From Antedon mediterranea (taxonomy: Eukaryota > Animalia > Echinodermata): a stretch of DNA of 64,000 nucleotides. Shown here one piece after another: positions 1-51,300 of this stretch; positions within the stretch are counted from its first letter, which is position 1, and each line of letters begins with the position of its first letter. The stretch lies in NCBI RefSeq assembly GCF_964355755.1, contig NC_092678.1, forward strand, positions 21,717,365-21,781,364. Reading direction: 5' to 3'. The position numbers were made by a program, and so were the translations under genes. Under the pieces are notes generated by a model. The model ran no database searches. It saw only the letters and a list, made by a program, of their open reading frames with translations, and had not been told where the DNA came from.

Positions 1-397
1 AGATATTACGTAGTTTTTGTTTTAAAATAATTCGGGTTGAAAACTAGGCCTATGCTTTCCGCCAGCCTATTTATGCTAGCTGGGCTTACCGTACCGTAGT
101 AGGTGTAGCCTATGGACCATAGTATCTGGCTGGGCCTAGAATAGAAGCAGTAAGTTACTATAATGTGTACAGGCGCGGCTGGCTGGCCCAGCAGGCCTAG
201 CCTGTTTTGTGTTTAAACTGGTAGCGTCAACTGAGATGTGAAACGCGTTACTGTGTCACAACTATAACTTAAAACAAAACGGATTATACTTCTAGATTGT
301 AGAAAAAATAAATATAACATTTTACATCTAAATACAATACAGGTTTTATCTGAAATTATTTGTCACCGTGGTTTCACTACTGACGCTGCGATGTAAC

Positions 398-3300
398 ATG
401 ATGGAAGGTGTGTCCTCAAGCCACGACCAACCTGTCAATCATTGCATTGTTAAGGGTTCGTCAAACAATGTTGTCATGACTGGAGATGGAAGTAGTGTCT
501 CTGGTAATTTGTTTTTTTATATATTTCTTTCATTTTTTGCTTGGTTTATTTATACTAATGCACTTGTCAATTGTATGACCCATTATGCGACCCCCGGGAA
601 AAGTGCATCATACTGTAGATGCGTCATCATTTACACAAAATTATTGATGCAGGGGTGCGTCAAAAAACCTAGATGGTACGTCACATCAACAAATAACAAT
701 GTGCCAATGTTCGTCACTTTACCACCCACCATATCATAAACAACATGATCACAGTGCGTCAAAGTAGGTGCATCATGATCACCTAAAGACAAATCACGTT
801 TTGATGGTGCATCATGATATTCATAAGGTATGAAAAACATCGGACAAATGACGCAAACTATCCCAGGGGTTGTATAGAGGGTCATACAATTGACGAGTGC
901 ATTATAGAGCTACGTTTTATTTGTTTTATAATTAAGCCCTTGAATTACAAAAAAAAATAAATAACATTTAACTATGCCGAGAGTCAAATACGGAAAGGGG
1001 TAAGACTTTTGTTGTGAAACTGATTTGGTTGTTGATGACTGTGTTCCCTTTCACCCATTTACTTTCAATAACTGCATGCTTTGTTTTTCCAGTGAATCTA
1101 TATAAACCAAAACAACGACAATCAAACAGTGATAGCGGTTATGAAGATGATGCTTCACAAAGGGACTCCACGACGGAGGACATGACTGAGGAGGATGCCA
1201 AAAGTAACGAGGATGACCTTCCAATGGAGATGGACAATCCTGTGACATCATCATGCATCGTCAAAGGTGATGAAAATGTGGTGGTAATGAGCGGTGACGG
1301 GAGCAATGTCAAAGGTCAGTAGTTGTGTATTTTTATTAAGATCATCAACTTAACTTTAATAACCACTATTTAAATTCTTTCCTTTATATAAACTAATAGG
1401 AAAATATTTAATATATTGGTTCCAAGAGATTAAGGTTTTATTTTTAACCTTTAAGTTATGCAATTACATCATAATAGGGAGGTTTCGCAACCTTACGAAT
1501 ATGATAACGAAAACAGATACGTCATACATTTGTGAAACTTTTGAGCTGATCCCCATTTCATTCGTAAAGCGTATTCGTGTTGAGGAATATCACCAGTCAT
1601 ATTCGTAACTACAAAACGAGTATAGTTTTTGATCTATTTTGCACATTTTGCATTTGAATCAGGAATGATTCATGATTATAATATAATTATAGATTTATTG
1701 AAAGTAATTTACTAAAGTAATTTACTAAAATGCCATGTCAATTTTGATAAATAGCAATTTTTAAAGTCCTCACTCGCTTTGATGTTACGCTAGGCCTAGG
1801 CATCCAAGCACCAAGCATCACATACCTGTCATATTTTGGACGAGCCTCAATATTTCGTTGCCATGCGAAACAGATTGTTTTATGGCTTACGAATACGTAT
1901 GCGTGACATATCCGTATTCGTGATCGTATTCGTAAGATTGCGAAACCTCTCTACTATTGGGTAAATTAAAGGTTCAACAAGAAAGTAAAAAATAACATGA
2001 TTATTATTTGTCTAGCGTTTATATATAGTAAAAATAATACATAGAAAATAAGGTTTATATTGTATACTGTACAATAGAACCAGGAGACACACCCATAATC
2101 AGGGAGAGACACACCCATAATCAGGGAGAGACACACCCATAATCAGGGAGAGACACACCCATAATCAGGGAGAGACACACCCATAATCAGGGAGAGACAC
2201 ACCCATAATCAGGGAGAGACACACCCATAATCAGGGAGAGACACACCCATAATCAGGGAGAGACACTTCCATAATCAGGGAGTTGAAATCTGTTTCAGAA
2301 CTACACCCCTATTAAAGCGTGTTTCCCACTAGCGACGCAACTCAAGGACGTAACAAAATGCAAGTGAATTGACCAATCACAAGCGATGGCTTATTCGCTT
2401 GTGATTGCTGTCTGTAACTTCGCTTGTCATTGATTAAAACGCTTGCGTTGCGTTTACGTCCTTGCGTTACGTTCTTGCGTTACGTTCTTGTGGGAACCAA
2501 GCTTAAGGGGACATGTTGTTTGATCCCTTTATAGGGGTTCCTTCCATTGTATAATATTATCTCTTTTTATTTTAGTCAATGTAAATGATAATAAAGCCGC
2601 TGATGAAGATATTACAGAAGATGATGATGATAAGCAGAGTGATGTCAATTCCAATAACAACAACATGAAGAGTAACCAGTGTCCACCTAAAGAACAGACA
2701 GACGCATTCCCTAACTTAGACACCAAAGATAGCATGTTGCATGATGGGACTGATGTCGGGGAACGACCCGTGGCTCATGTTCAACCAATGCCACAAAAAA
2801 AAAAAAACGAAGACGAGATTCCAACCAGATCAAACTCAAACAACGCAATAGTATCTAATGAATATTCATTAGGAAATAGTAACCCTTCTTCTTTACGTCC
2901 TAAGCGAAGGCTGGTTGAGGAAGTAGAAGAAAGTAATGAATTTTGCAAGAAACAAAAAACAAATGATGCTGCAGCACAAGGCGAGTACTGTACCACCTGG
3001 TAGTGCAAATATGTAAATGTTATGCAAATTAGCTCATGGCATAATATTATTTTGTAGTTCTAACTCGGCTTTTTTTATTTCAATACCAAATTTAATCTTT
3101 TTTAAGCATTAACATTTTAAAATTATTTTGTATTTTTTCAGAATGTGGACCAAGTTCTTGCCAAACATTTCATCGAGTAAATATAGAGGGCGCCGATAAC
3201 ACTGTAATCACTGCGGGCTCTGGAAGCACAATTCATTGCAAGTTGATGTTTTGTTTATTTTGTTTAGAAACCTTTCTGAATTATTTTATTAAATAATTTC

Positions 3301-4577
3301 ATTTTCATCTTTATTTCTTTCCTCAGATTTCCAATGTAAACATTCACAAAAAGAATCAACGAAGAACGATTATAATATTGACCATATTGACGGCGAAACC
3401 TTGAAAAGTAAGTTCTTGAAAATACTTTTTAATTTCTTCTTTCTCAAAGGTGTCTTCTTTCACGTGAAAATCATATCAATGTATTTTGTGTTTTATAATA
3501 TATAGTTATTTTTCTATGCTGTTTGTAATTGTGCCTCTTTTACTTTTAATTATATATGTATATTGATTGTAAACAAACGTTATCAGCCAATGGCTGCTGT
3601 TTTGTATGTGTTTTTAAACCTAAATAAATAAATAAATAAATAAATAAAAAATACAATGCTATGGTTTCAGTGTTAGTCACTAAACCTACACATTTTGACA
3701 TTTTGTAAAAATAGTGCATAAATATACTAATTTAAAAACATTAAACCAGGTCATTCCTTTTCTTAAATGTACGTTTTATGGTTAGTTATGGGAAAAGGAG
3801 AGAAACCATGCACTACCTGTGTAGCTTGCGTCGGTTTAGCTAGGCTTAGTTGTGTAGGCCTAGCTGGTTAAAGAGCGGTAATGTAAGAACATCGTACGCT
3901 AGCTATAGGCCTAGCCCGGTGTTGTCTTGTTGCTGAATTGTCTTTCCATTTTTGGCAGAATCTGTTAATAATTTCGCTGAAAAGTTACGGTTCTTTTATT
4001 TGTTTACCCCTTCAAGATCGATCGAAAGTGGGTGCATCACACCACAATATGAGAATATCAATCCGTGTGCGATGCATTCTGGTATTTATAGTGGGCCGCT
4101 TAGAGACAAACAAAATTGTCGCAATAGGTCCATTTTATTTTTACATAAAATGTAGTTTGTGACCTTAAATTAAGTCTATAAAACGAAGGTCTAGTGGCTT
4201 TAAATTATATTTTAATTGAAAGTATGGATTTCCAAGTGATATACTAAGCACCTGTGAAATGAATCTTCTTCCTAGAAACCGGAATGATGTCCTTTTTCCA
4301 GCGGATCTCGAAACATATCGGAAGCACATCCAACAAATGGAAGCAACTTGCCAGGGAACTTCCGATGGTTAGTTACGACATTCTGGAAAAAGAGATCAAA
4401 TTTCTGGAACAGACGCCAGAAACGACTGAGCAAAAAGCCTTTGCTGTACTGGTAAAATGGTGGAGGAGGAACAGTGGGGATACTGGCATGAAAAAGAATC
4501 TGGTAGCGGCCTTAAGATATATTAAACTGCCATGGTTAGCTGCAACGCTTGAAAAGGAGATAGAGGGGCTGTCATGA
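398..4577 (+). CDS. Death-domain adaptor-like protein with three RHIM-like repeats (6 coding exons, 403 aa)
   Basis: Exons 398-503, 1093-1314, 2576-2980, 3142-3237, 3327-3407 and 4276-4577 join into one open frame (1212 nt, ATG to TGA). All introns are phase 1 with polypyrimidine-AG acceptors; the donors at 2981 and 3238 are GC. The last exon encodes a death-fold pattern (ISKHIG..KWKQLARELP..EQKAFAVLVKWWRRN..LVAALRYIKLPWLAATLE). The middle of the protein is acidic and low complexity. Confidence 0.8.
556..904. mobile_element. MITE in intron 1 (about 26-bp TIRs)
   Basis: taatgcacttgtcaattgtatgaccc at 556 and its near reverse complement gggtcatacaattgacgagtgcatta ending at 904. Confidence 0.75.
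1476..1952. mobile_element. MITE in intron 2
   Basis: Terminal inverted repeats agggaggtttcgcaaccttacgaata ... tattcgtaagattgcgaaacctctct. Confidence 0.75.
2083..2282. repeat. 22-bp minisatellite, about 9 copies
   Basis: Tandem agggagagacacacccataatc. Confidence 0.95.
2316..2503. mobile_element. PIF/Harbinger-type MITE
   Basis: Imperfect TIR agcgtgtttcccac / gtgggaaccaagct with TAA on both sides. A related degenerate copy lies near 58130-58260. Confidence 0.6.
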
Positions 4578-4885
4578 CATATTTGATTGCGGGGGTGTTT
4601 TTTCTTTATGTGTGTTAATTAAGTTTCTTTATTGGGCAGTAAAACTAATTTGGTAATTATACCCAATTGCTAAAAAAGCAATCATATTTTTTAGCAATTC
4701 AGTTACCATACAGTGAAATTAATTAGAAAAAAAATATTATGTGTGTAAATTGTAATGATTTAGGGAGTTACTATCATTCGATAACCTCACAGCTCTACAA
4801 ATATGCTTCGTAGCCAGCAATCCTCCTAAAATTGTTTTTGATGTTTAATCACAATTGTTTTAGTTAATAAAAACACAATTGAGAC

Positions 4886-10420: not shown

Positions 10421-13400
10421 TTAAATGATCATACTCTTATCGTCCCCACTTTCCTCAAATGATATATCATCGTCATCTTGCGGGATATCTTCAATCATCA
10501 TCTCACCTATTGATCCGCCATCCTCTGGGATCTCTTCCGTCATCTCACCTATTGATCCATCATCCTGCGGGATCTCTTCCATGTGCGTTGACCTCTCACT
10601 TATACTTGATCTATCATTATCTACTAATGTTTCTTCGAAAAGTAATCTTGATTCTCCGTGATTCAAGGTGATAAAATCATCTGGGTTAAGCTCCTTATTT
10701 GCCATCTCCTCTTTAACGAGTTTTGGCGGCTCTAGGTAGAACTGGGAAGAAAAATAATAAATAATAAAAAGATAATCACTTGTTTGTGTATCAGAAAAGT
10801 AAAAATGTTAATTCAATGAAGATTCAGTATCAATGTATAGTTAGTTTTACTTCAGCATTTCAGTGGTTTTGCCAGTGGCATAATGCAGAGATAAGGCCCC
10901 TGGTTTAGCACTCCTAAGGGGCCCTCCAACGCTGGACATTTGGTTGCTTAAGCTCTGGGGCCTCTGGGTTTAGCCAGTGAGCGTTCATAGCCAGTGAGCG
11001 TTCATAGCCAGTGAGCGTTCATAGCCAGTGAGCGTTCATAGCCAGTGAGCGTTCATAGCCAGTGAGCGTTCATAGCCAGTGAGCGTTCATAGCCAGTGAG
11101 CGTTCATAGCCAGTGAGCGTTCATAGCCAGTGAGCGTTCATAGCCAGTGAGCGTTCATAGCCAGTGAGCGTTCATAGCCATTATACCTTAGAATTGTTTT
11201 TCTGTGTATGTCTATAATGATTTTTGAACTCGAGTATGGCGGGTGGAGCCAAGCAGTCTGTATTTTTAACGGACTATAATATTACTGTATATGTTAGAGA
11301 TAGCCCGTTAGAGTTTCCGATTTGGTCATACAGTACTGTAGTATGTACAATAGTAATTGTTTATTGATGAGGAAACAAATTATGCAAATATTGTGCCTGT
11401 TAATTAACATACCTCGTTACCAAATGGGAAGGTTCCCCAGTGGATACCAATTGACACAGTGCTTTGCAGGTCAACATGGACTTGTACTGCTTCTTGTGGG
11501 TTGATGTGCTGGGGCTTCTTAAACCATCTATAAGAGAAGATAAATAGTAGTAACGCTATTATTGTAAATGTCAACTTAGACAGCATCGAGGCCCAACAAA
11601 TCAGTATTATTTTTATTAAGTTTCATTCAGTTCTAATAAATGACAGTGACCACAAGAAATGAAGTTGTGCGGTTGTCAAAGGCCTGTGAAAAAGTTGAGT
11701 TGAGTTGAGGGTGAAACCTCAACAACCGCACTGGTGGCTACAGCCCATTGTATGATTTTCCATTATTTAAACAAATGTTTGTCAAACTGCATGGACGTAC
11801 CTTGGTTCGTAGGCACCAATAGGAATAGCTGCTAGATCAAACGGTCCGTATCGCCGACCAATCTGAGTGAATGCATCACAATAACCGGTATCGCCAGCAA
11901 AAAAGAAACTATGATTTGGTCCAAATACGCACCAACTACCCCATAAATACCAGCCGTTATCATGCAAAGCACGGTTACTCCAGTGTTGTCCTGGTGTGAA
12001 CGCAATCGTTATTTTTGTATGATCAGGATGTCCATTCTCTTGCCACCAATCCATCTCGATGACATTTTCGCATCCCGCCCTCATCATCCAATTCATAAGT
12101 CCGAGCGGTACAAACCATCGCAATTTTGACCCAAAACGGGCATTTAAACATTTTACAGTCGGTAAATCAAGATGATCATAATGTGCATGACTGATTAGGA
12201 CGGCGTCAATGTTCGGAAGGTCGTGAATGTCGCACGGGGGTTTACGATATCGTTTTGGACCTATGTGCGCTGAGGGGCTACATCGCATACTAAAGATAGG
12301 GTCTGTTAAAATTGTTATACCATCAAATTGTACAAGAACACAAGCGTGGCCAAGCCACGAAACACGGATTCCGCTATGCGGCGGTAACTTCCATTCTTCC
12401 AAATTTGGAGATATGATGGGTAAAGTTTTGTCCAATACCTGCAATTCAAATATAACAAAATAATCATATATTATAATATAATTATACTATAAAGCACTTC
12501 CTATTTGTTTAATACCAAAAGGCTTTGGAACTTTTTTATGGATTTAAATTTTTTTTATAAAGCATGCAGCTTTGATGTACCGTAATGCCTTATCACCAGA
12601 TACACAATCGTATTACTGTATGTCTAGCGACTATACACATTACACATATTGTAACTTCTGACCACAACCTTACTCCCATGTGAAACTGTCACTATACAGT
12701 AGCATTTACTCTTCAAAATACCAACTACCAACTAGCTGATCGGTTGATTTCGCTTTCTAATCGGTAGACCTTTGTTCGAACCATAGTGTGGTCATTTTTT
12801 TGTTCATATAGTAGTAGTGAGAGATTATTTAAAGGGTTAGGTCAAGTTTATTGTCTGGGGGGGGGGGGGGACATTATACTGAGAAGGCTGTTATACTATC
12901 TTATTGACATTCAGAAAGATAACAGCCAAATGTATACATTAGATAAAAGAACAGGATTTAACTATACTACAATCAATATTATTATATAAAGAATGTTGAG
13001 GTAGTTTTGTACACAGTAGACCACTGTTTTCAAAGTCAATGTTCAATGCTACTTTAAAGGTGGGCAATACCATGGAGGTATATTTTATACAATACTATGT
13101 CCATAGAATTCATATTTACTCTTTACAGTTTTGTGATCAATTGAAGAAGTTCCAAAAAGTTGATCAACTTATTATTGTGTTCCAGTCTGTTTGCCATGTA
13201 CTGTAGGCCTTTAATTCCTATCATGTGACCAACAACATCATGTGACCAACATACAAACAAAAATCTCAGAAATCAAAGTTATAATACTTACATTTTTATT
13301 AGGAATTGCACGATTATTTTTTGAAAATAATTTCCATTTTAAAACTCCACTTAAACTTGGCATTGTCCATGAATTCCAGGGATTTATAAAGTTACCCCAT

Positions 13401-31694: not shown

Positions 31695-34600
31695 TTATTT
31701 CTTCTGCTGTTTACGGAGGCGACGTTGAGCAGCCATAGCAGTTTTCCAATCTTCCATGGTTTGATTTGACTTAGCAGCACAATACCAAGTCCCGAAATAC
31801 TGAGCGTGGCTTTCCATCAGTCTCGGTTGTTTGCACTGAGAACAAACACTCACTGATGTTCTTGGCTTGTAGCGTTTTACTTGTTTACCTTCAGCTATTC
31901 TGTTCGCTGCTTGTTTCCTGTAGTAGGCGACGCTTCTAGGTATCGGTCTCTCTACAGGAAGGCTGCTGCTGCTACTGGCTGCAGGGGCAGATGACGTAGA
32001 AGGTAGTGGTGGTATTGCCATCTTGCCTGGTGGAACTGGAATTGACGTTTTGTTCCTTACTGTCGCTTGCCCAACAGTGCTCTCTGGCAGGACAAATGTG
32101 AATGATGGAGCGATCGTCAACGTGTATAGCACTGCTGGCTTGATCAAAGGTTCGGGCAAGGCTCTAGAGGTGACAAGCTTGGGTTTGGTTGCAGATATGC
32201 CAGATTCCAAGACTTGCCGCTCTTGCTTCTTCGATGTTCTGTTGTACCTGTTGAAAATAAGCAAAATAATTGAAAATGAGATTGTATTTATAGCAAAAAC
32301 ACCACCACCACAGAAACAAAAAGTAAGAAACTTACCACTGTATCAGTGTGGTACGGTTTATCTCCATCAACTGAAGCGGAGCAAACGACGAAAGGTGTCC
32401 GTTCGTTAGCACTTTGCGACGGATGTTCTTGTATCCCTTGACGATAAGGGGCCAGCGCTGCGATCGGTTGCCTCCGACTGAGATGACGGTAGATTTGTAG
32501 GCTTCACACAGTTTTGTTATAAGGCACTCCATGTACCGATTACAGTCTGGCCATTGGGCTGGTCCGGTGTTTTGACCCAAGAAGCATCTGTAATATTTAA
32601 AAAGAATATTGTATTAACAGTTGATTAAATTAACATCAACTCGCATTCATCACATCAACCAACAAATTGAACAAAAAGTAGGAAACTGTCTTACCGTCTA
32701 GTGCTTTCGACACCTGGGATTACTGTCGTTTTACTCCTTTTGAACCTGCCCTTGGACAGGTAATCTTGATGTCGTTTGATGATTTTGTCATAAGGTTTGA
32801 GGTTGTTCCATAGCTGTGTAATCTGCTCGGCTTGAGTTTTACTTATGACCCCACTGTCTCCTTTGAACTGGAATAGACAGTCAGCCAGGGCTTCTACCTT
32901 TGCATACCCTGAGATGTTGTCCGGTCCTGCAGAATCCTCAAGCTCCTGTAATTGTTTTTAATGTGAATTAAATTTTTTGAAATGTTTTCCGTATATTTTT
33001 GACACTCACAGGGAAGAGGGAAAAATAAAAAAAATAGAAATCTTCATAGCTTTAAATTCAGAACAGAACAGTAATTAACTCATTGTCAACAGTCATTCAT
33101 TTCAAATATTAGGGTTATATAAGAAACAAGTTCCTTAAAAAATGAAGAGACAAACAAAATATATGTATATACACAATATAATAATATTGATTTAATAAAA
33201 AACTACTTACAGTGTCGATCAGAGCTGCGTCTTCTTTAGCATCACTACCATGTGATGATGGAGGCTGCTGCGGGATCGGCGAGGGTTGCCTAACTTCCGG
33301 AGGCGCACGATGATGACGTCCACCCAATCGGCGAAGTGATGGAGGTTCGTAGTCCGGTTGAGTTATGTCATCATACCCTACGTCAACATCGAAAGTGTAC
33401 ACATCTTCGTCGAAGTCTGCATCGTCACTTTCATCATCTGAAAATTGAGTGAGGAACCACTTGACAGAGGGCACTGGGATCATTTCTGATACCTGGTCGA
33501 ATTTTGGTGCGGTAATAAGAACACTGTCAGTGTCACGAGCATCACGGAACGTCTTGCAATCTTGCAAATAGAGAGCCACTCTCTCATTCCACCGTCTTAT
33601 ATGTTGCTCCAAGACTTGTTGGTGAAGCTGCGAAGGGCTGTTGCCGAATCCGCGGTGCTTGAGGAGCTGCAACACCCGGTTGTCGCATGCTAGGCGGTAC
33701 GAAAGCACAGCGGGGAACTGGAGTCGATGTGCTAAATCAAGTTGTTCCAATATGTTGTTGCTCCAGCCGATTTGTTTTGCGTGGCAATTAGGGCACTCCA
33801 GGTACTCTGTTGCGAGTATGTAGTGGCAGTCTAAGTCCAGGACCAGACGAACGTGTCTGTAGAGACCGGCAGATGTGAGTGGGCGGCTCTTGCATCCTGG
33901 TCGAGTGCAGACTAGCTTGATTAGCCAGATCTTGTGAAGCATCCAAAGAAGGAGACGATGACCGAAGTAGCTTCTGGGTTTTGGTATGTTCTTGCAGAGC
34001 GGATCCGGTTGTGGTGGGTCGAACCACATTTGCTTGAGTTTGGTAGAATCCAACTCTGCAGTCCCCTTCTTTGATTCCTTGAATAAGGCTTTGGAAATCC
34101 ACTCTTGGTCAATCTCGGACAAAGTCTGTTTCCATCCTTCTTGTACAAGGCAGTCTGAAATAAAATTGGACACTATAATTTCTACAATACAATCAAATAA
34201 ATCCTTTAACCAAATTAAATAACATTAAATGGTACATGTTTTTTAACTAAATGAATAACACATGTAAAATGAATTCAGTCAGCCAGTCAGCAACTGAATT
34301 ATACACTAATCATACATTAAACTGAAATGTTGGTTTCAAAATAAACAAAACATAAATAAATAATTACCATGCCCCTTTGACCAAGAGACTGTCGTAGGCA
34401 TAGTATTAGCAGGTTCTGTGGATGCACTTGGTTGGGCTAGGTTAATCAATTTGTCAAAGAAATGTGTTAATAACATTAATAAATCTACAGAAATACCTGT
34501 TCTTTACACAGATAGCATTTTTTAATATTTAAACAAAAATACATGTAGCAGTTTACATAATGCATCAGTAGCGGAATGTTAATAAAGGTGCAGGTAAAGC

Positions 34601-35563
34601 TTACAGTGAATAATGAAAAAAAAAACATCTTCAGACAAGATGAATACATGACTAAACAAGAGTATAAATATAATACATGAGAAAACAAGTACAAATACAT
34701 GAGAAAACAAGTACATTTACAATATGAGAAATTATGTAAATCAACAGTAGTTTTTAACACTGTAGGCCTAATAATAGATGTTGTTTTTAATTTGTTTTTT
34801 AATGCATAAAGTACAAAATCAAAAGAAAATCAAAAACATGACAAGTAGACAGGGTTTTGTCTAACTACAAGAGATACTGCAAACAAAGCATATTTTCTAT
34901 ATTAATTTCTACCACATATATTTACCAATTATGCCAAATACATTTAGTACACTATAAATATAGAAAAAAAAAATTCAAATTATTAAGTAACAAAAAATGG
35001 ACTAAAAAAGTTAATTGAAACAAAAGAAATTAGAAAAAAAAATTACCTGGTGCATCAGTGGATGGTGGCTGACGAAAAGCAAAAACTGATTTACCAAGAG
35101 GTTGAGTTTGACTCTGAGAATGTGATGTCTGATGTCTAGTTGGTCGGGTTCTCCCGAGGCGTTCTTTCTCTTTCATAGCTATGGCTTCTTTGCCCTCAGG
35201 AAAAGACTCCAAGTACTTCTTGAACTTGAATTTGTTCAAACTGAGTGGACTCGTACTCGGAGCTTCGTTTGACACCTGGGTCACCAAATATGCAGCGTAT
35301 CCAAGGACATTTTCGACTATCCACTTGAATGATTGCCCTTGGTATTTGCCGAGCTGAAGTTTGTAGCAACCCAAAATATCACATTCGTCTTTGGTGTCTC
35401 CTCCCAGAATGCATACTTCCTTCAAGGCATCTTGATGTACTTCATCAGGAAGTAGGCATTTGCGAGTCGATTGCTTTTTGGACCTGCTGAATACTACTGC
35501 AGCAGTTGTATCACCCAGTCTCAGGACACCCTTCTCATTTCGCTGAAAGATTGGTCTCAACAT
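31695..35563 (-). CDS. Dada-type transposase derivative lacking the catalytic DDE core (6 coding exons, 861 aa)
   Basis: Exons 35563-35047, 34436-34368, 34154-33211, 32945-32695, 32587-32336 and 32247-31695 all have GT-AG sites and join without stops (2586 nt). Motifs: LQLGKYQGQSFKWIVENVLGYAAYL; LVCTRPGC..LECPNC..QFPAVLSYRLACD; C-terminal CSQCKQPRLMESHAQYFGTWYC. Confidence 0.75.
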
Positions 35564-35859
35564 CTTAAAACCTGCAAGACTTAAAAAAAAAAACAGATCA
35601 CGTGCAAAAATGTATGTGAACAAAGTAAGTATAAACAAAAGAAAATGTTACCGTAAATATTGATGACTCGGTGAAAAGCCAGTTGAAGTGAATGCTAATA
35701 AGTGGTAAAAAGAGAAAAATATAGATTACTTAGAGCTACCACATAATTTAATAATAATAATGAAAAATTTAAAAATAAAGTAATTTAAAAATAAACTACT
35801 TTCTTTTGTCATTGTTGGTGCACCATGAATTTGGGTGCAATAAACTCTGGTAATAATTA

Positions 35860-45970: not shown

Positions 45971-48383
45971 TTCTTATGTTCTTTAAACAAATGATTTTTC
46001 AAACAAATATAATTTTACTAGATTTAGAAACTCCATTCTATGCAGCCTAAACTATCCAATTTACACATGGTATAGGGCTTCTTGTGTGATCAGTAATAAC
46101 TCTTAAATCTCGATACAATTCAATCTGATGTACCTCTGATAAACCCCTAAAAGTACTATACATCTGAAGGTAATTTTACCTCCGATATATTTCAGAATGT
46201 AATATTAAATCAGTTGGTTATTATCTATGTATTTTTTTGTGTTTTTAAACAAAGAACAAGCTAAACCGCAATGTAACTTCAACACACCACAATTTATACT
46301 CCGAAAAAGAGTGTGTGTCTTAACAAAGTTAAATAATATTAATATTTGTGTCAGTTTGTGGTAGATATTAAATTATTGATTATGAATATATTATCAAATT
46401 AATGTCGGTTGACATCCAAAATAGTTCAGTAACCTTTAATACAGATAAAATTACACAGCAGCTCCTTGTCAATATGGCCTATTGTTGTGTATTCATTTTT
46501 ATTGGTTATATCACATAATTGATGGTAAGAATAAAAATAAAGGTCACTGGTACGTTGAGTCATTATGCCGCGAAATATGCTTGTTGTTACGTGTGGCAAA
46601 GCTGAAATAGAGTTTGTCTGCTTTCTACTCTAATGTGATGTGCCCATATACGGACATGATGATGTCATACCACCACCCTATTTGGACATATCACTACCGT
46701 ATTTTGGCACATCGCACTTTTTTTGTTGTGTACACATAGCTTTAATACAGCTGGTATGCAACAATATTATAATGTCAATATTGTAAGTGTAAATATATTT
46801 TGTAGCACTTGATTGTCTGTTATTAAAGTAAATATTGCAAAGTGTAAATATAATTTGTGCACTCAATTGTCTGTTTAATAGTTTTAAAGTACCGTAATAA
46901 ATTTATTGAATTTCTTGATTATTCTCCTTCGCTGAACAAATTAAAGGCAGTAATTATGCGATTTCAAGATTTCTTGGAACAGATAGCCAGAACTAAAACA
47001 AGTAAATACATTAGGCCTAAAAAAGTTGTCAATTTGTTAAATAAATAGGCCTATAGTGTTGCCCAGATTTTGTTCTTATTTGATTTTGGGTAATTCTTCT
47101 AAAATATCTGGACCAAAACAGAACATTGCTTTAAAAAAATTACTAATATTTTCAACAAATTATTTTATATTTACCAACAAAATTTAAATCCGACCCAAGA
47201 TTTTCTCAAATTATTTTGACTTACTGTATTTGGATTATTTGGATAAACCAATAACAGCCTTTGTCTTCAATGATATTGATAAAAATAAATACAGATTTGT
47301 TGAACAACCCTATCCACTAATGGTACAGTCCATGAACCTTAGCATTTATAGTAGGTTTTCTTTCCATTTAAATTAAAGTTCTTTCAAGTAATGTTATTAA
47401 AATATTCATTTGAATGAAAATTTAGATATCGAGAATGAGTTAATATATGCAAATGACGTTGTCCTGCGGCTGTATGCGAAAAACTGTCAGAAAAAATCCG
47501 GTGGATTGTTTCAATGTTGACGTTAATGGCGTGTCCCATATGTTAATAGTCGTCGATCACAAGTCGATGAATTGGTTAATTTGCAATTCACATCTGTGAC
47601 TACAGTGTTTTAATTTCATGGTCTAAAATTGTATTTTCATGATGATTCTTTTGTTCTCTTTTGCTTTAGCTGTACTGTAAATTGTCTAAATTAAAAACAT
47701 TTACAGTAGGGATAAATTTTAAATAGAGATCAATTTAGAAATGTGTTTTTTTTTATCTGGTTTTTGTTGATTGCTTGTTTGATGATAAATTCATTTAATG
47801 AAAGCCGACTGTAGGAATTAATCAATGTGAAATCCTGTAGTACAATATTTTAGAAAAAAATTATTTGTTATTTCTTGATTACAAGGATCTCAAATTCTTT
47901 CTACTGAATTGAACAGTGTGTTGGCTTGCCATAATCATAGTCAAACAATGGTCTCATTTATACAAAGGGCACAGGTTCAATCTCTCCTCGACCATACTGT
48001 AGTTCTGGTGGTAGAACAATTCTTGGATAAGGACTTAAAACTAGAGATCCAGTGTACACATCTGGCTTGTGAGCACTTTAAAGAACCCAGTGCATCCTTC
48101 ACAAAAGTAGGGGTTACCCTGGAGTCTACTGTATCTCAGGCCCTGTTGTGGAGAGAAAAATGAGTGCCGTTTTGACAAAAGTTCCACACGAAGGGAACAC
48201 TATGGGTGATTAAATTTCTTATATGTGATATCATAGTCCACTGCGCTTTGTATGTACAGTATAGTATGAAGTGCATTTAATATATGGAATACAAATCTGT
48301 TGTGAAACTCACAGATTTCTCTTTACTTTACAGATAATGTTGAAATAGCCAACGCTTGGGAATTGAAATATAAACTTTTAAAT

Positions 48384-51300
48384 ATGTATGACAAAGTTGC
48401 ACCTGACTGCAATGAGTCGAACAGTTCACGGTCAACAGGACCGTTGTCGCTTCCGCACTTATCCAAAAGTTCCCGGAGTTCCAGTTCTCCGGAGTTACGA
48501 TTTTCCCCGGAAGTTACAACGAATCCTTTGATGCCTGCTCCAACGGAGACAACACCGCCACCACCTCAAACCAACTGCTCAACGTCAAGCAGTGCACATC
48601 AAATGCATGAGCCTTTAAAAAGAACTTCAACTTCGTCAGGGACGGACAAAAAATACGACCTACGTTGTTGCACGCTTCCTGTTTGTATTGTGACTCTTCA
48701 GATTCTATTAGGATTTATAATTACGACTTTTGGAATTGTGATGTTGCTAATGACGCCCTCTATAAAACACAGAGATGCACCTTATTGGGCTGGAGTCCTG
48801 GTAAGTACAGTATTTCATAAAAAGATGTACCGTAACTAAGTAAAAATGTGATGTTTGTAATCTATAAAAGTAAACCATTACCTGGATAAACCAACATTCC
48901 CCTTAACTTTCCCTCTGAAATTTTTGAAATCGTTGAACTTCCCTCTAATAAGTGGTATCGTCCGTAGACCAATCATGTTGGCGACCACCTTTATTAACAA
49001 TTTTAATCAAATAAAATGACTTTTTATGTGATTATGAAATTGAGTTTTCAAAAAACATTATCATGTATTTTAACGGAAGATTATACTCAGAAATGGCATT
49101 TATAATCAACTCAATCCTTGGAAGTTGACGCGTACTTATGTAACGACGTTGGCTAAGTAACTTTTGATTTGTATATTTACATTCATACAATATAATTTTC
49201 TTGAGGTCAATCACTGATATTGATTTGTGTATGTAGATATAGTTTATAGGTAATTAAAGAGTAGTTGGCTCAATTATTTTGGCTTTGTGTAGAGGTGTGT
49301 TTGTAAATTTAACAATCTACAGGTAATTGTAATAATCTGTTTTTGAAAATGTTTGTAGACGTTTATGCTACTGTAGATAGTTAATAGTAATACTCAACAC
49401 TATTGCAGCATGAAATAGAAATGTTAAAGCCCCATTCCCTACGTTTTTTAGATCTAATTTAAGATCACAAACTATATTTAATGTAAAAATAATACTATAT
49501 GGTCCTATTGCGATAACTTTTTTCGTCTTTAAACGGTTAAAAATGTGAAAAATAAGTCGATTCTAATAATTATAGCGGCCCGCTATAAATCCCAAAATGC
49601 ATTGCGCGCGGATTGATATTTTTGTTTTTCACCTGTAATTCGCCCACTTTTCGATCGATCGATCGTGAGGCCAAAACAAATGGAAGACTCCTAACCTTTC
49701 AGCGAAAATACCGGGTTTTCCCCAATTTGTATCAACGGAGTCTGGCAAAAATAGAAAGACAATTAATGCAGCAACTATACAACGTCAGGCTAGGTATATA
49801 GCTCGCGTACGATGTTCGTACGTTACCGATGTTTACCAGCTAGGCCTACAAAACTAAGCCTAGCTAGGCTAGGCCTAAGACCGTCCACGAGAGGTCGATC
49901 GCCGCGAGCTACTTAGGTAGAGCATTGTTTCTCACTTTTTGTCATAATTTACCATAAAACGTACATTTAAGACAAGGAATGACATGGTTTAATGTTTTTA
50001 AAGTGATATATATGTATTATTTTCCAAAAAACGTCCAAAATTGCAGGGAAGGGGTCTTTAAGCATTTTTTGTTGTACTATTTAAATTTAGTACTATCCAG
50101 GAAATTTGGTTCAATATGAATTTTGAGTAGAACATGGAAAAGGAAAACATAGTTTTGTAGTGCATTTTTTGCTATACTTTGGTGAATATGCATCTTAGCA
50201 AGATGTAGCATTTGGCTAGCTATACTATTCCCTGACATACAGTAGTTTTGTAGTGCATTTTTTGCTGCACTGTGATAATGCTTCCTAGCAATCAAGTGTA
50301 CTGTAGTATTTGGCTACATGCTATACCGGTGACAACGTTCCCTGGCTCCTTATTGTTTTATTATTATTTATCTCTAGATCTTCTATCTGGATAGATTCAA
50401 TAAACGATATGTGGTGATACAATTCAAATTCAATTTAAGTCAAACTTATTCACTGAGTGAGTCATATGGCCGAGCGGTTAAGGCAGGGGCGCCGTTTACC
50501 GTACCTAAAGAGCCAACAACAACATCGGCAAGGGTTCGAGGCCGACTCGCTCCTAGTTCTGGTGGTGGAACAAGTCTTCTCGGATAAGGACTATAAACCG
50601 TAGGTCCAGTGTACACAGTTATAACCTGTGTGTACTTTAAAGAAACCCAGTTCATTATTCGAAAAAGAGTAGGGGGTTACCCCGGTGAACTGGTTCACAC
50701 AATAGCCCCTGTATCAGGGGGATTACCACCTATCTGATAGGACAGTGATTAATTCACTATTGGTAATCCTTGGCCACATTGCCTAAAGACATAAAATAAA
50801 AAAAAAATAAAAAAAACCTTCCCTTAATAGGAGAAACGTAATAAAACAGTATATTGTACAATTTAAAAAAACACATTGATTTGATTTAAAATTCACATGG
50901 TCTATAGCAAAAGAAAGTCAAAATGGTTAATTAGAAAACAAATTTATAAAATATCAAAATCATATCATTGTGAAAAATTGCAGACTTAACGCTACAGTAT
51001 AATACTCTAGATTGACACACAGTAGGTTAGTTTTAAATAAATTCTTGGGATCACAAACTGGTTTTTTTTTGCAAAACATACCTGGATATTTAACCAACAT
51101 TTAGTCTTTCTCCCTCATTTAGATTTCAATCTTCTTGTAGTGTATTTCTAAATTCTGGTCTGGATTTGCTCTGTAGACCATTGTACACTTTGTACCATAC
51201 ATTACTCTAGTCAACTATCACAATAAAGGACTCCGTGAAAACCGGAAACTCTCCCAACACCCAAATTCATTTATACTATTAAAAACACATTCCAAATACT

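What the first reader, a model, noticed from the sequence alone, without database searches (positions are those of the whole stretch)
398..4577. Kinase-less death-domain adaptor with three exon-encoded RHIM-like amyloid motifs
Seen: three related ~25-aa motifs (HCIVKGSSNNVVMTGDGSSVSVNL, SCIVKGDENVVVMSGDGSNVKVNV, RVNIEGADNTVITAGSGSTIHYF) are separated by acidic low-complexity linkers. Each ends across a phase-1 exon junction, and a death domain follows. Established: RHIM/cRHIM motifs (hydrophobic-x-hydrophobic-G-x-x-N-x-hydrophobic) drive amyloid signalling in RIPK1/RIPK3/ZBP1/TRIF and insect IMD. Inference: this may be an IMD/RIPK1-C-terminus-like amyloid adaptor built by exon duplication, with a divergent motif (IVKG/NIEG instead of IQIG).
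Basis: partly seen in the sequence, partly recalled or inferred. Interest (0 to 1): 0.72.

Follow-up and report, generated by a model that had tools for sequence, protein, structure and literature searches.

The report
Echinoderm death-domain adaptor, non-RHIM stacking motif
A spliced feather-star gene encodes a death-domain protein with three copies of a 22-residue motif that sea stars and sea urchins keep as a single copy; the motif is not a canonical RHIM, but it likely stacks into amyloid-like filaments and would then be a new kind of animal signalling-assembly motif.

Summary
Six coding exons (398-4577) give 403 residues, identical to an NCBI model labelled Antedon mediterranea. One spliced contig covers five exons in contiguous order, with an 81-nt gap the size of the sixth, and supports two GC-AG introns. 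The C-terminus is a Pfam death domain; the rest is predicted disordered. Three 22-residue motifs are cut by a phase-1 intron at the same codon, so they arose by duplication. Orthologues in sea stars and sea urchins (21-23% identity) carry one copy, 44-52 residues before the death-domain WK, with G-x-x-N invariant. The RHIM label fails as membership: no Pfam RHIM hit, no (V/I)Q(V/I/L/C)G tetrad, and a polar or charged residue where the RHIM core is aliphatic. The layout still resembles amyloid signalling motifs: three short hydrophobic strands with G/N/S turns at 9-residue spacing (RHIM: 8), inside disordered sequence. Best reading (0.45): a kinase-less adaptor whose motif stacks as a beta-solenoid or amyloid rung to cluster death domains. 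Aggregation, partners and immune role are untested. A conserved bipartite basic site points to a nuclear rival.

The parts
343..503 (+). Exon with the start codon (ATG 398) and motif 1; preceded by an acceptor AG at 341-342; an upstream exon lies outside what was laid
443..503 (+). Motif 1 (aa 16-37), columns 1-20 and first base of column 21
1093..1314 (+). Exon 2 (phase 1-1): end of motif 1, acidic linker 1, motif 2
1131..1142 (+). DSGY site (aa 49-52), resembling a beta-TrCP phosphodegron (label recalled, untested)
   Evidence: loose pattern D[SEAD]G[YF] in 6 of 7 orthologues
1254..1314 (+). Motif 2 (aa 90-111), columns 1-20 and first base of column 21
2576..2980 (+). Exon 3: disordered linker 2; ends at a GC donor; holds 10 of the 16 substitutions seen in run X1
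2767..2787 (+). PxAxVxP site (aa 174-180), SIAH-degron-like; crinoids only
   Evidence: 2 of 7 orthologues; pattern tied to SIAH in search listing
2902..2958 (+). Bipartite basic site (aa 219-237), NLS-like
   Evidence: K219 R220 invariant in 11 of 11; loose pattern in 7 of 7
3142..3237 (+). Exon 4 (phase 1-1) with motif 3 (aa 257-278; 3177-3237), the copy shared with sea stars and urchins; ends at a GC donor
3327..3407 (+). Exon 5: end of motif 3 and short conserved linker to the death domain
   Evidence: 81-nt gap in the spliced contig
4276..4577 (+). Exon 6: death domain (Pfam stretch aa 312-395, about 4299-4550) and stop codon

Best explanation
This is an echinoderm-wide, kinase-less death-domain protein whose 22-residue motif (one copy in sea stars and urchins, three in crinoids) likely acts as one rung of a beta-solenoid or amyloid-like stack that would cluster the death domains to recruit a downstream death-domain partner. 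Shown: gene structure, splicing, death domain, motif homology across three echinoderm classes, triplication with a shared intron position. Predicted: disorder around the motifs. Inferred: one 22-residue unit with three short hydrophobic strands cannot close a beta-helix alone, so single-copy orthologues would have to stack it on other chains; the three crinoid copies could pre-stack in cis and lower the nucleation barrier, as proposed for ZBP1 and HET-s. Inferred more weakly: an innate-immune or cell-death role, tuned by degron-like sites and nuclear import. It works like a RHIM/HRAM-type motif but is not a member of the RHIM family as defined.
For: G261 and N264 are invariant in 11 of 11 aligned proteins, 9 of which are only 21-23% identical to the query. 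A profile from crinoid motifs alone ranks the star/urchin motif first among all windows in 5 of 5 proteins, and the reverse profile ranks motifs 3, 2, 1 as the top three in 2 of 2 crinoid proteins. Hydrophobic residues fall at columns 1, 3, 10-11, 19, 21, with G/N/S/T between (copies there were picked by a pattern, so that table is descriptive). Motifs are 68-73% identical between crinoids, linkers 1 and 2 only 42-46%. AlphaFold2 leaves residues 1-296 essentially under pLDDT 50 while the death domain reaches about 87. Known motifs are 20-25 aa, flanked by disorder, and occur as double or triple copies (PMC4262963; 10.1101/2020.01.06.895854); folds persist at 17% identity (PMC7889193). Leads only: weak DUF3060 match on two stretches (E 0.032, below cut-off); 4 of 10 Atlas structure neighbours of motif 3 are curlin, DUF3060 (2) and CAP_C clusters, all under the tool's bar.
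Against: No aggregation or binding data. No RHIM, HET-s or other amyloid-motif family in Pfam or among PDB chains at E<=10. The Atlas feature search on motif 3 gave no usable hit. AlphaFold2 builds no beta structure for any motif beyond one bridge (2 and 11 sequences, so weak). Star and urchin copies have a proline at column 14 and D/E at column 12 (5 of 5), which must sit in a turn. Motif 2 holds 5 charged residues of 22. No second protein with the motif was found, in a search that also missed the known positive P0002. The best-conserved non-domain feature besides the motif is NLS-like, which does not itself suggest a cytoplasmic signalosome. Nothing here links the gene to immunity except the death domain.
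Confidence: 0.45

Rival explanations
1. Nuclear death-domain scaffold: the motif is a linear binding site that adds a beta-strand or hairpin to a folded partner (for example SUMO-type binding by the central hydrophobic run), and the three crinoid copies give avidity without any filament.
For: K219-R220 invariant in 11 of 11, bipartite basic pattern in 7 of 7 and degron-like sites. The central V/I-rich run with acidic neighbours in motif 2 resembles a SUMO-interacting motif (recalled, not tested).
Against: Conservation spans 21 columns with fixed spacing and invariant G and N, longer than such motifs usually are (general knowledge). No gaps in the motif between crinoid and star/urchin copies in the ungapped profile test.
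Confidence: 0.25
2. A true but highly divergent cRHIM: the gene is an echinoderm counterpart of IMD or of the RIPK1 C-terminus, and the motif would cross-seed with RHIM/cRHIM partners.
For: Motif-then-death-domain order with a 44-52 residue gap to the WK. cRHIMs are loosely defined as V/I-x-x-G in a three-strand unit (PMC9387487). With column 14 as the RHIM glycine, 5 of 6 crinoid copies read [VI]xxG and positions 529, 531, 539, 547, 549 are hydrophobic. Atlas top hits include arthropod death-domain proteins of 183-206 aa at 0.84-0.85, lead only.
Against: Tetrad absent in 7 of 7 proteins. In that register the glycine is proline in 5 of 5 star/urchin copies, and 533 and 541, two of the four aliphatic residues that nucleate RHIM amyloid (10.64898/2026.02.19.706818), are G and T/S/A/Q in 11 of 11. 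The death domain is not RIPK1-specific.
Confidence: 0.15
3. The motif folds as a closed hairpin packed on the death domain or on a metal site and is part of an extended globular domain; the extra crinoid copies are tolerated duplicates.
For: The motif sits at a near-constant distance from the death domain (44-52 residues) and linker 3 is well conserved in crinoids.
Against: AlphaFold2 with 11 sequences does not pack it on the domain. Copies 1 and 2, 170-240 residues away, are as conserved as copy 3 (15, 15, 16 of 22).
Confidence: 0.1

Closest known systems
RIPK1 C-terminus (RHIM + death domain) and RIPK3/ZBP1/TRIF RHIMs
   Same: Short three-strand hydrophobic motif in disordered sequence ahead of a C-terminal death domain; a G-x-x-N turn; several copies on long linkers as in ZBP1.
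   Different: No kinase; no (V/I)Q(V/I/L/C)G; strands 9 residues apart instead of 8; the G-x-x-N follows the first strand with an extra polar residue before G; conserved NLS-like site.
Insect/crustacean IMD (cRHIM + death domain)
   Same: Kinase-less adaptor layout; loose V/I-x-x-G core met by some crinoid copies.
   Different: About twice the length of the Atlas arthropod hits; core not met in sea stars or urchins; no PGRP-like partner with the motif found; orthology not shown.
HET-s/HRAM and bacterial BASS amyloid signalling motifs
   Same: 21-25 residue unit with a conserved glycine, hydrophobic-polar alternation, and one copy in some proteins and two or three in others.
   Different: No sequence match; animal death domain instead of HeLo/Bell; no adjacent NLR gene in the window among the ORFs scanned.
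DUF3060 / curlin-type beta-solenoid repeats
   Same: phi-x-phi-x-G-x-x-N-x-phi spacing; weak Pfam match on two stretches (E 0.032) and sub-threshold structure neighbours.
   Different: Those are contiguous repeats in folded or secreted bacterial proteins; here the units are isolated by 50-145 disordered residues or occur singly.

Membership tests
RHIM (Pfam RHIM; RIPK1/RIPK3/ZBP1/TRIF) | Core tetrad (V/I)-Q-(V/I/L/C)-G | tested here: not met
   0 of 7 proteins; definition from passages
RHIM (Pfam RHIM; RIPK1/RIPK3/ZBP1/TRIF) | Match to the Pfam RHIM model | tested here: not met
   No RHIM row at E<=10 for 6 exon pieces and 8 whole proteins; HMMER filters drop weak matches
RHIM (Pfam RHIM; RIPK1/RIPK3/ZBP1/TRIF) | Aliphatic residues at RIPK1 531, 533, 539, 541 | tested here: not met
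   Position 541 hydrophobic in 0 of 11 copies in either register; 533 is G in 11 of 11 in the second register (positions)
RHIM (Pfam RHIM; RIPK1/RIPK3/ZBP1/TRIF) | G-x-x-N-x-hydrophobic turn | tested here: met
   G261, N264 invariant in 11 of 11; following position V/I/L in 10 of 11 copies, A in one
RHIM (Pfam RHIM; RIPK1/RIPK3/ZBP1/TRIF) | Forms cross-beta fibrils and cross-seeds other RHIMs | not testable with these tools
   Needs bench assay
cRHIM (IMD, PGRP-LC/LE, Pirk) | V/I-x-x-G core with invariant G | tested here: inconclusive
   First glycine: met in 4 of 11 copies (crinoid motifs 1, 2). Second glycine: met in 5 of 6 crinoid copies, proline in 5 of 5 star/urchin copies. Criterion is weak
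cRHIM (IMD, PGRP-LC/LE, Pirk) | About 25 residues, mostly hydrophobic, three predicted strands | tested here: inconclusive
   22 columns with three hydrophobic clusters; AlphaFold2 gave no confident strands
cRHIM (IMD, PGRP-LC/LE, Pirk) | Same motif shared by receptor and adaptor of one pathway | tested here: inconclusive
   1 hit (the query) among 208 candidates, known positive missed; no genome held
Death domain (PF00531) | Profile score above curated cut-off | tested here: met
   29.3 bits vs 22.6; orthologues score 16-21 bits, under the cut-off, and Diadema and P0008 gave no Death row
Death domain (PF00531) | Six-helix death fold | tested here: met
   Helical domain at pLDDT about 87; top Foldseek rows all death domains, probability 1.0, but 0 with E<=0.001
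RIPK1/IMD orthologues | Death domain closest to RIPK1/IMD | tested here: inconclusive
   Ankyrin, FADD and THOC1 domains rank above RIPK1 with near-equal scores; family profile hits only FADD, E 0.79; no tree built
RIPK1/IMD orthologues | N-terminal kinase (RIPK1) | tested here: not met
   No kinase row in 8 of 8 proteins; full-length orthologues are 403-480 aa
RHIM/PP/BASS3 group | Central G-phi-Q-phi-G signature | tested here: not met
   Signature from passage; its tetrad absent

The most novel reading that the evidence does not exclude
Echinoderms, reported to lack RHIM-bearing RIPK1, use a separate animal amyloid signalling motif (phi-x-phi-x-G-x-x-N, 9-residue spacing) on a conserved death-domain adaptor, and crinoids turned the one-rung form into a self-seeding three-rung solenoid by duplicating an intron-bearing unit.
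Probability: 0.33. Interest if true: 0.78.

Novelty: new variant of a known kind. Interest (0 to 1): 0.52.

Why it matters
Known animal amyloid signalling rests on RHIM and cRHIM, while fungi and bacteria have about a dozen motif families (PMC12261475, abstract passage). RIPK1 homologues with a RHIM tetrad and death domain were not found in echinoderms (PMC12119088, passage). A second animal motif family on a death-domain adaptor conserved across crinoids, sea stars and urchins would fill that gap. It is directly testable with three short peptides and with the sea urchin orthologue LOC576011. The one-copy versus three-copy split is a natural test of how repeat number sets the nucleation threshold.

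Tried and rejected
Whole-genome partner search: no genome is held for this window. Motif-profile search for partners: only the query among 208 candidates, and P0002 was missed, so no evidence either way. Family-profile word search: 3 hits among 6663 candidates, all known, 8 known members missed. The wide structural search was busy and not run. PDB sequence search with the death domain alone: 0 hits at E<=1; with the motif profile: 4 chance hits, none amyloid. First AlphaFold model (2 sequences) too poor for fold comparison. No run is on record as RNA; X1 is RNA by guess, though its contig is spliced. No paralogue or fourth motif in the 64-kb window. Second-ranked profile windows in star/urchin proteins do not fit the motif on inspection, so degenerate extra copies were rejected. 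A TRAF6-type site at the conserved PMEM stretch fits Anneissia but not this protein: rejected. An N-terminal extension cannot be excluded from the window (frame open from 343 to 397), but the Anneissia start aligns within a few residues. No earlier findings of the scan matched. Kleino 2017 (PMC5665175) was not held. Figures and the supplement of PMC4262963, which list invertebrate RHIM proteins, were not seen and could include an echinoderm member.
Full report
Gene structure. Six exons (398-503, 1093-1314, 2576-2980, 3142-3237, 3327-3407, 4276-4577) give a 403-residue frame with 5 of 5 introns in phase 1. It equals stored protein P0001, an uncharacterised NCBI model labelled Antedon mediterranea. 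Introns 3 and 4 begin with GC. Of 4 runs laid, X1 holds one 1697-nt contig that lies on 342-502, 1092-1312, 2574-2978, 3140-3237 and 4276-4800 with contiguous record coordinates; the unlisted gap is 81 nt, the length of exon 5. The 1-2 base offsets equal the shared G/AG at the junctions. X2, X4 and X5 give unspliced pieces. X1 is RNA only by the tool's guess and is a single study. 149 nt of the contig precede window 342, so there is an upstream exon. No whole genome is held.

Domains. Exon 6 matches Pfam Death at E 9.7e-7, above the cut-off. AlphaFold2 with 11 sequences models aa 300-400 as helices at pLDDT about 87 and leaves 1-296 essentially under 50; with 2 sequences the whole model was poor. 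Foldseek's top rows are all death domains (ankyrin, FADD, THOC1, RIPK1, RAIDD, TRADD), none at E<=0.001, so the subfamily is unresolved. The family profile hits only FADD in PDB sequences, E 0.79.

The repeats are real. Motifs 1 and 2 share 16 of 22 residues; their score of 82 was reached by 0 of 1000 shuffles (maximum 49). Motif 3 alone is borderline (score 39; 20 of 500 and 47 of 500 shuffles). All three align without gaps when anchored on the donor site, and each is split at the codon of column 21; random placement gave this 1 in 2,000,000 times. Duplication of an intron-bearing unit is the simplest cause. Between the two crinoids the motifs are 15, 15 and 16 of 22 identical, against 22 of 52 and 66 of 145 for linkers 1 and 2.

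The family. HMMER over 1.84 billion representatives gave 7 hits at E<=0.001: the query, five full-length proteins from Patiria, Acanthaster, Asterias, Diadema and Strongylocentrotus (LOC576011), and one unnamed 74-aa fragment. No hit outside echinoderms was named; this does not prove absence. In an alignment of 11 proteins (several near-identical), G261 and N264 of motif 3, K219-R220 and death-domain residues are invariant although 9 rows are only 21-23% identical to the query. Stars and urchins have one copy, 44-52 residues before the death-domain WK, as for crinoid motif 3 (7 proteins). A profile built from crinoid copies ranks the star/urchin motif first in 5 of 5 proteins; the reverse profile ranks motifs 3, 2, 1 on top in 2 of 2. 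One copy next to the death domain is likely ancestral, since motifs 1 and 2 are closest to each other and motif 3 is closest to the single copies; loss in the other classes is not excluded.

Is it a RHIM? Mammalian RHIMs have the tetrad (V/I)Q(V/I/L/C)G, three strands, and need aliphatic residues at RIPK1 531, 533, 539, 541 (10.64898/2026.02.19.706818, passages; PMC12575786, passages). The tetrad is in 0 of 7 proteins and Pfam shows no RHIM row for 8 of 8 proteins. cRHIM is defined loosely as V/I-x-x-G (PMC9387487, passages; PMC13506858, passages), so that test is inconclusive. A motif profile finds no RHIM or HET-s chain among 177,635 PDB sequences at E<=10. It should not be filed as a RHIM.

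What it works like. The pattern is phi-x-phi-x-G-x-x-N-x-phi-phi-x-x-(G/P)-x-x-(S/C)-x-phi-x-phi: three hydrophobic clusters about 9 residues apart with G/N/S turns (copies picked by pattern). That is the size and make-up given for amyloid signalling motifs, which are 20-25 residues and come as single, double or triple copies (10.1101/2020.01.06.895854, passages). Two or three RHIMs on long unfolded linkers were proposed to form a solenoid seed (PMC4262963, parts 1-3 of 4 read, figures not seen). Such folds survive at 17% identity (PMC7889193, passages). The only family-level hints are beta-solenoids and are sub-threshold: DUF3060 at E 0.032 and 4 of 10 Atlas structure neighbours. The Atlas feature search found no usable hit for motif 3 and only death-domain clusters at 0.84-0.85 for the whole protein. 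My inference is that a lone rung cannot fold alone, so it stacks between chains and clusters the death domains. This is not shown: no fibril, binding or partner data exist here, and the structure models show no strands.

Rivals. The invariant basic pair and bipartite basic pattern (7 of 7), a D[SEAD]G[YF] site (6 of 7, loose pattern) and a crinoid-only PxAxVxP site (2 of 7) (labels recalled, SIAH link seen only in a search listing) fit a short-lived, possibly nuclear protein whose motif might bind a folded partner (0.25). A divergent cRHIM (0.15) and a motif packed on the death domain (0.10) are less likely for the reasons given in those entries.

Novelty. A search for six locus or accession ids found 0 papers. 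Listings for RHIM + echinoderm + death domain, sea urchin adaptors and crinoid + immune + death domain showed no title on this family; the library lacks most subscription papers. RIPK1 homologues with RHIM and death domain were not found in echinoderms (PMC12119088, passages; PMC11507063, passages), and a sea-cucumber immunity review has 0 occurrences of RHIM or amyloid (PMC13673367, term count and passages). Verdict: a real, apparently undescribed echinoderm adaptor family with a conserved motif; new variant of a known kind; interest 0.52, rising to about 0.78 if the motif proves amyloid.

Noticed in passing
window 2981-3141 and 3238-3326: Two consecutive GC-AG introns flank the motif-3 exon; both fit the spliced contig. 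The second donor matches the usual donor consensus at only 5 of 9 places, so skipping of the motif-3 exon (phase 1-1, frame-preserving) is possible but not seen.
   Followed up: partly
window exons, run X1: 14 of 16 substitutions between X1's contig and the window are non-synonymous when read singly (two pairs share a codon), 10 of them in exon 3, with in-frame indels; exon 4 has none; one falls in motif 2 (V98M, the residue Anneissia has). Small numbers; relaxed or diversifying selection on the linker untested.
   Followed up: partly
window 11785-12486 (minus strand): Exon with a metallo-beta-lactamase-fold match (Lactamase_B_2, E 5e-29), NAPE-PLD-like by recall; further exons near 11.4 kb and 13.2-13.9 kb.
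   Followed up: no
window 31700-35650 (minus strand): DUF6729 match (33118-34224, E 1e-77) with several neighbouring open-frame pieces in a GC-richer stretch; looks like a broken mobile element.
   Followed up: no
window 48306-48836 (plus strand): Exon ending in a CD20-like transmembrane start (E 9e-5, below cut-off).
   Followed up: no
window 2084-2282 and introns 1, 2, 5: A 22-nt tandem repeat in 9 copies and high-copy interspersed repeats, seen as very high summed depth.
   Followed up: no
P0007/P0013 and P0014/P0015: Strongylocentrotus has two near-identical loci (LOC576011, LOC115917956), each with isoforms differing at the N-terminus; may be haplotypes or a recent duplicate.
   Followed up: no
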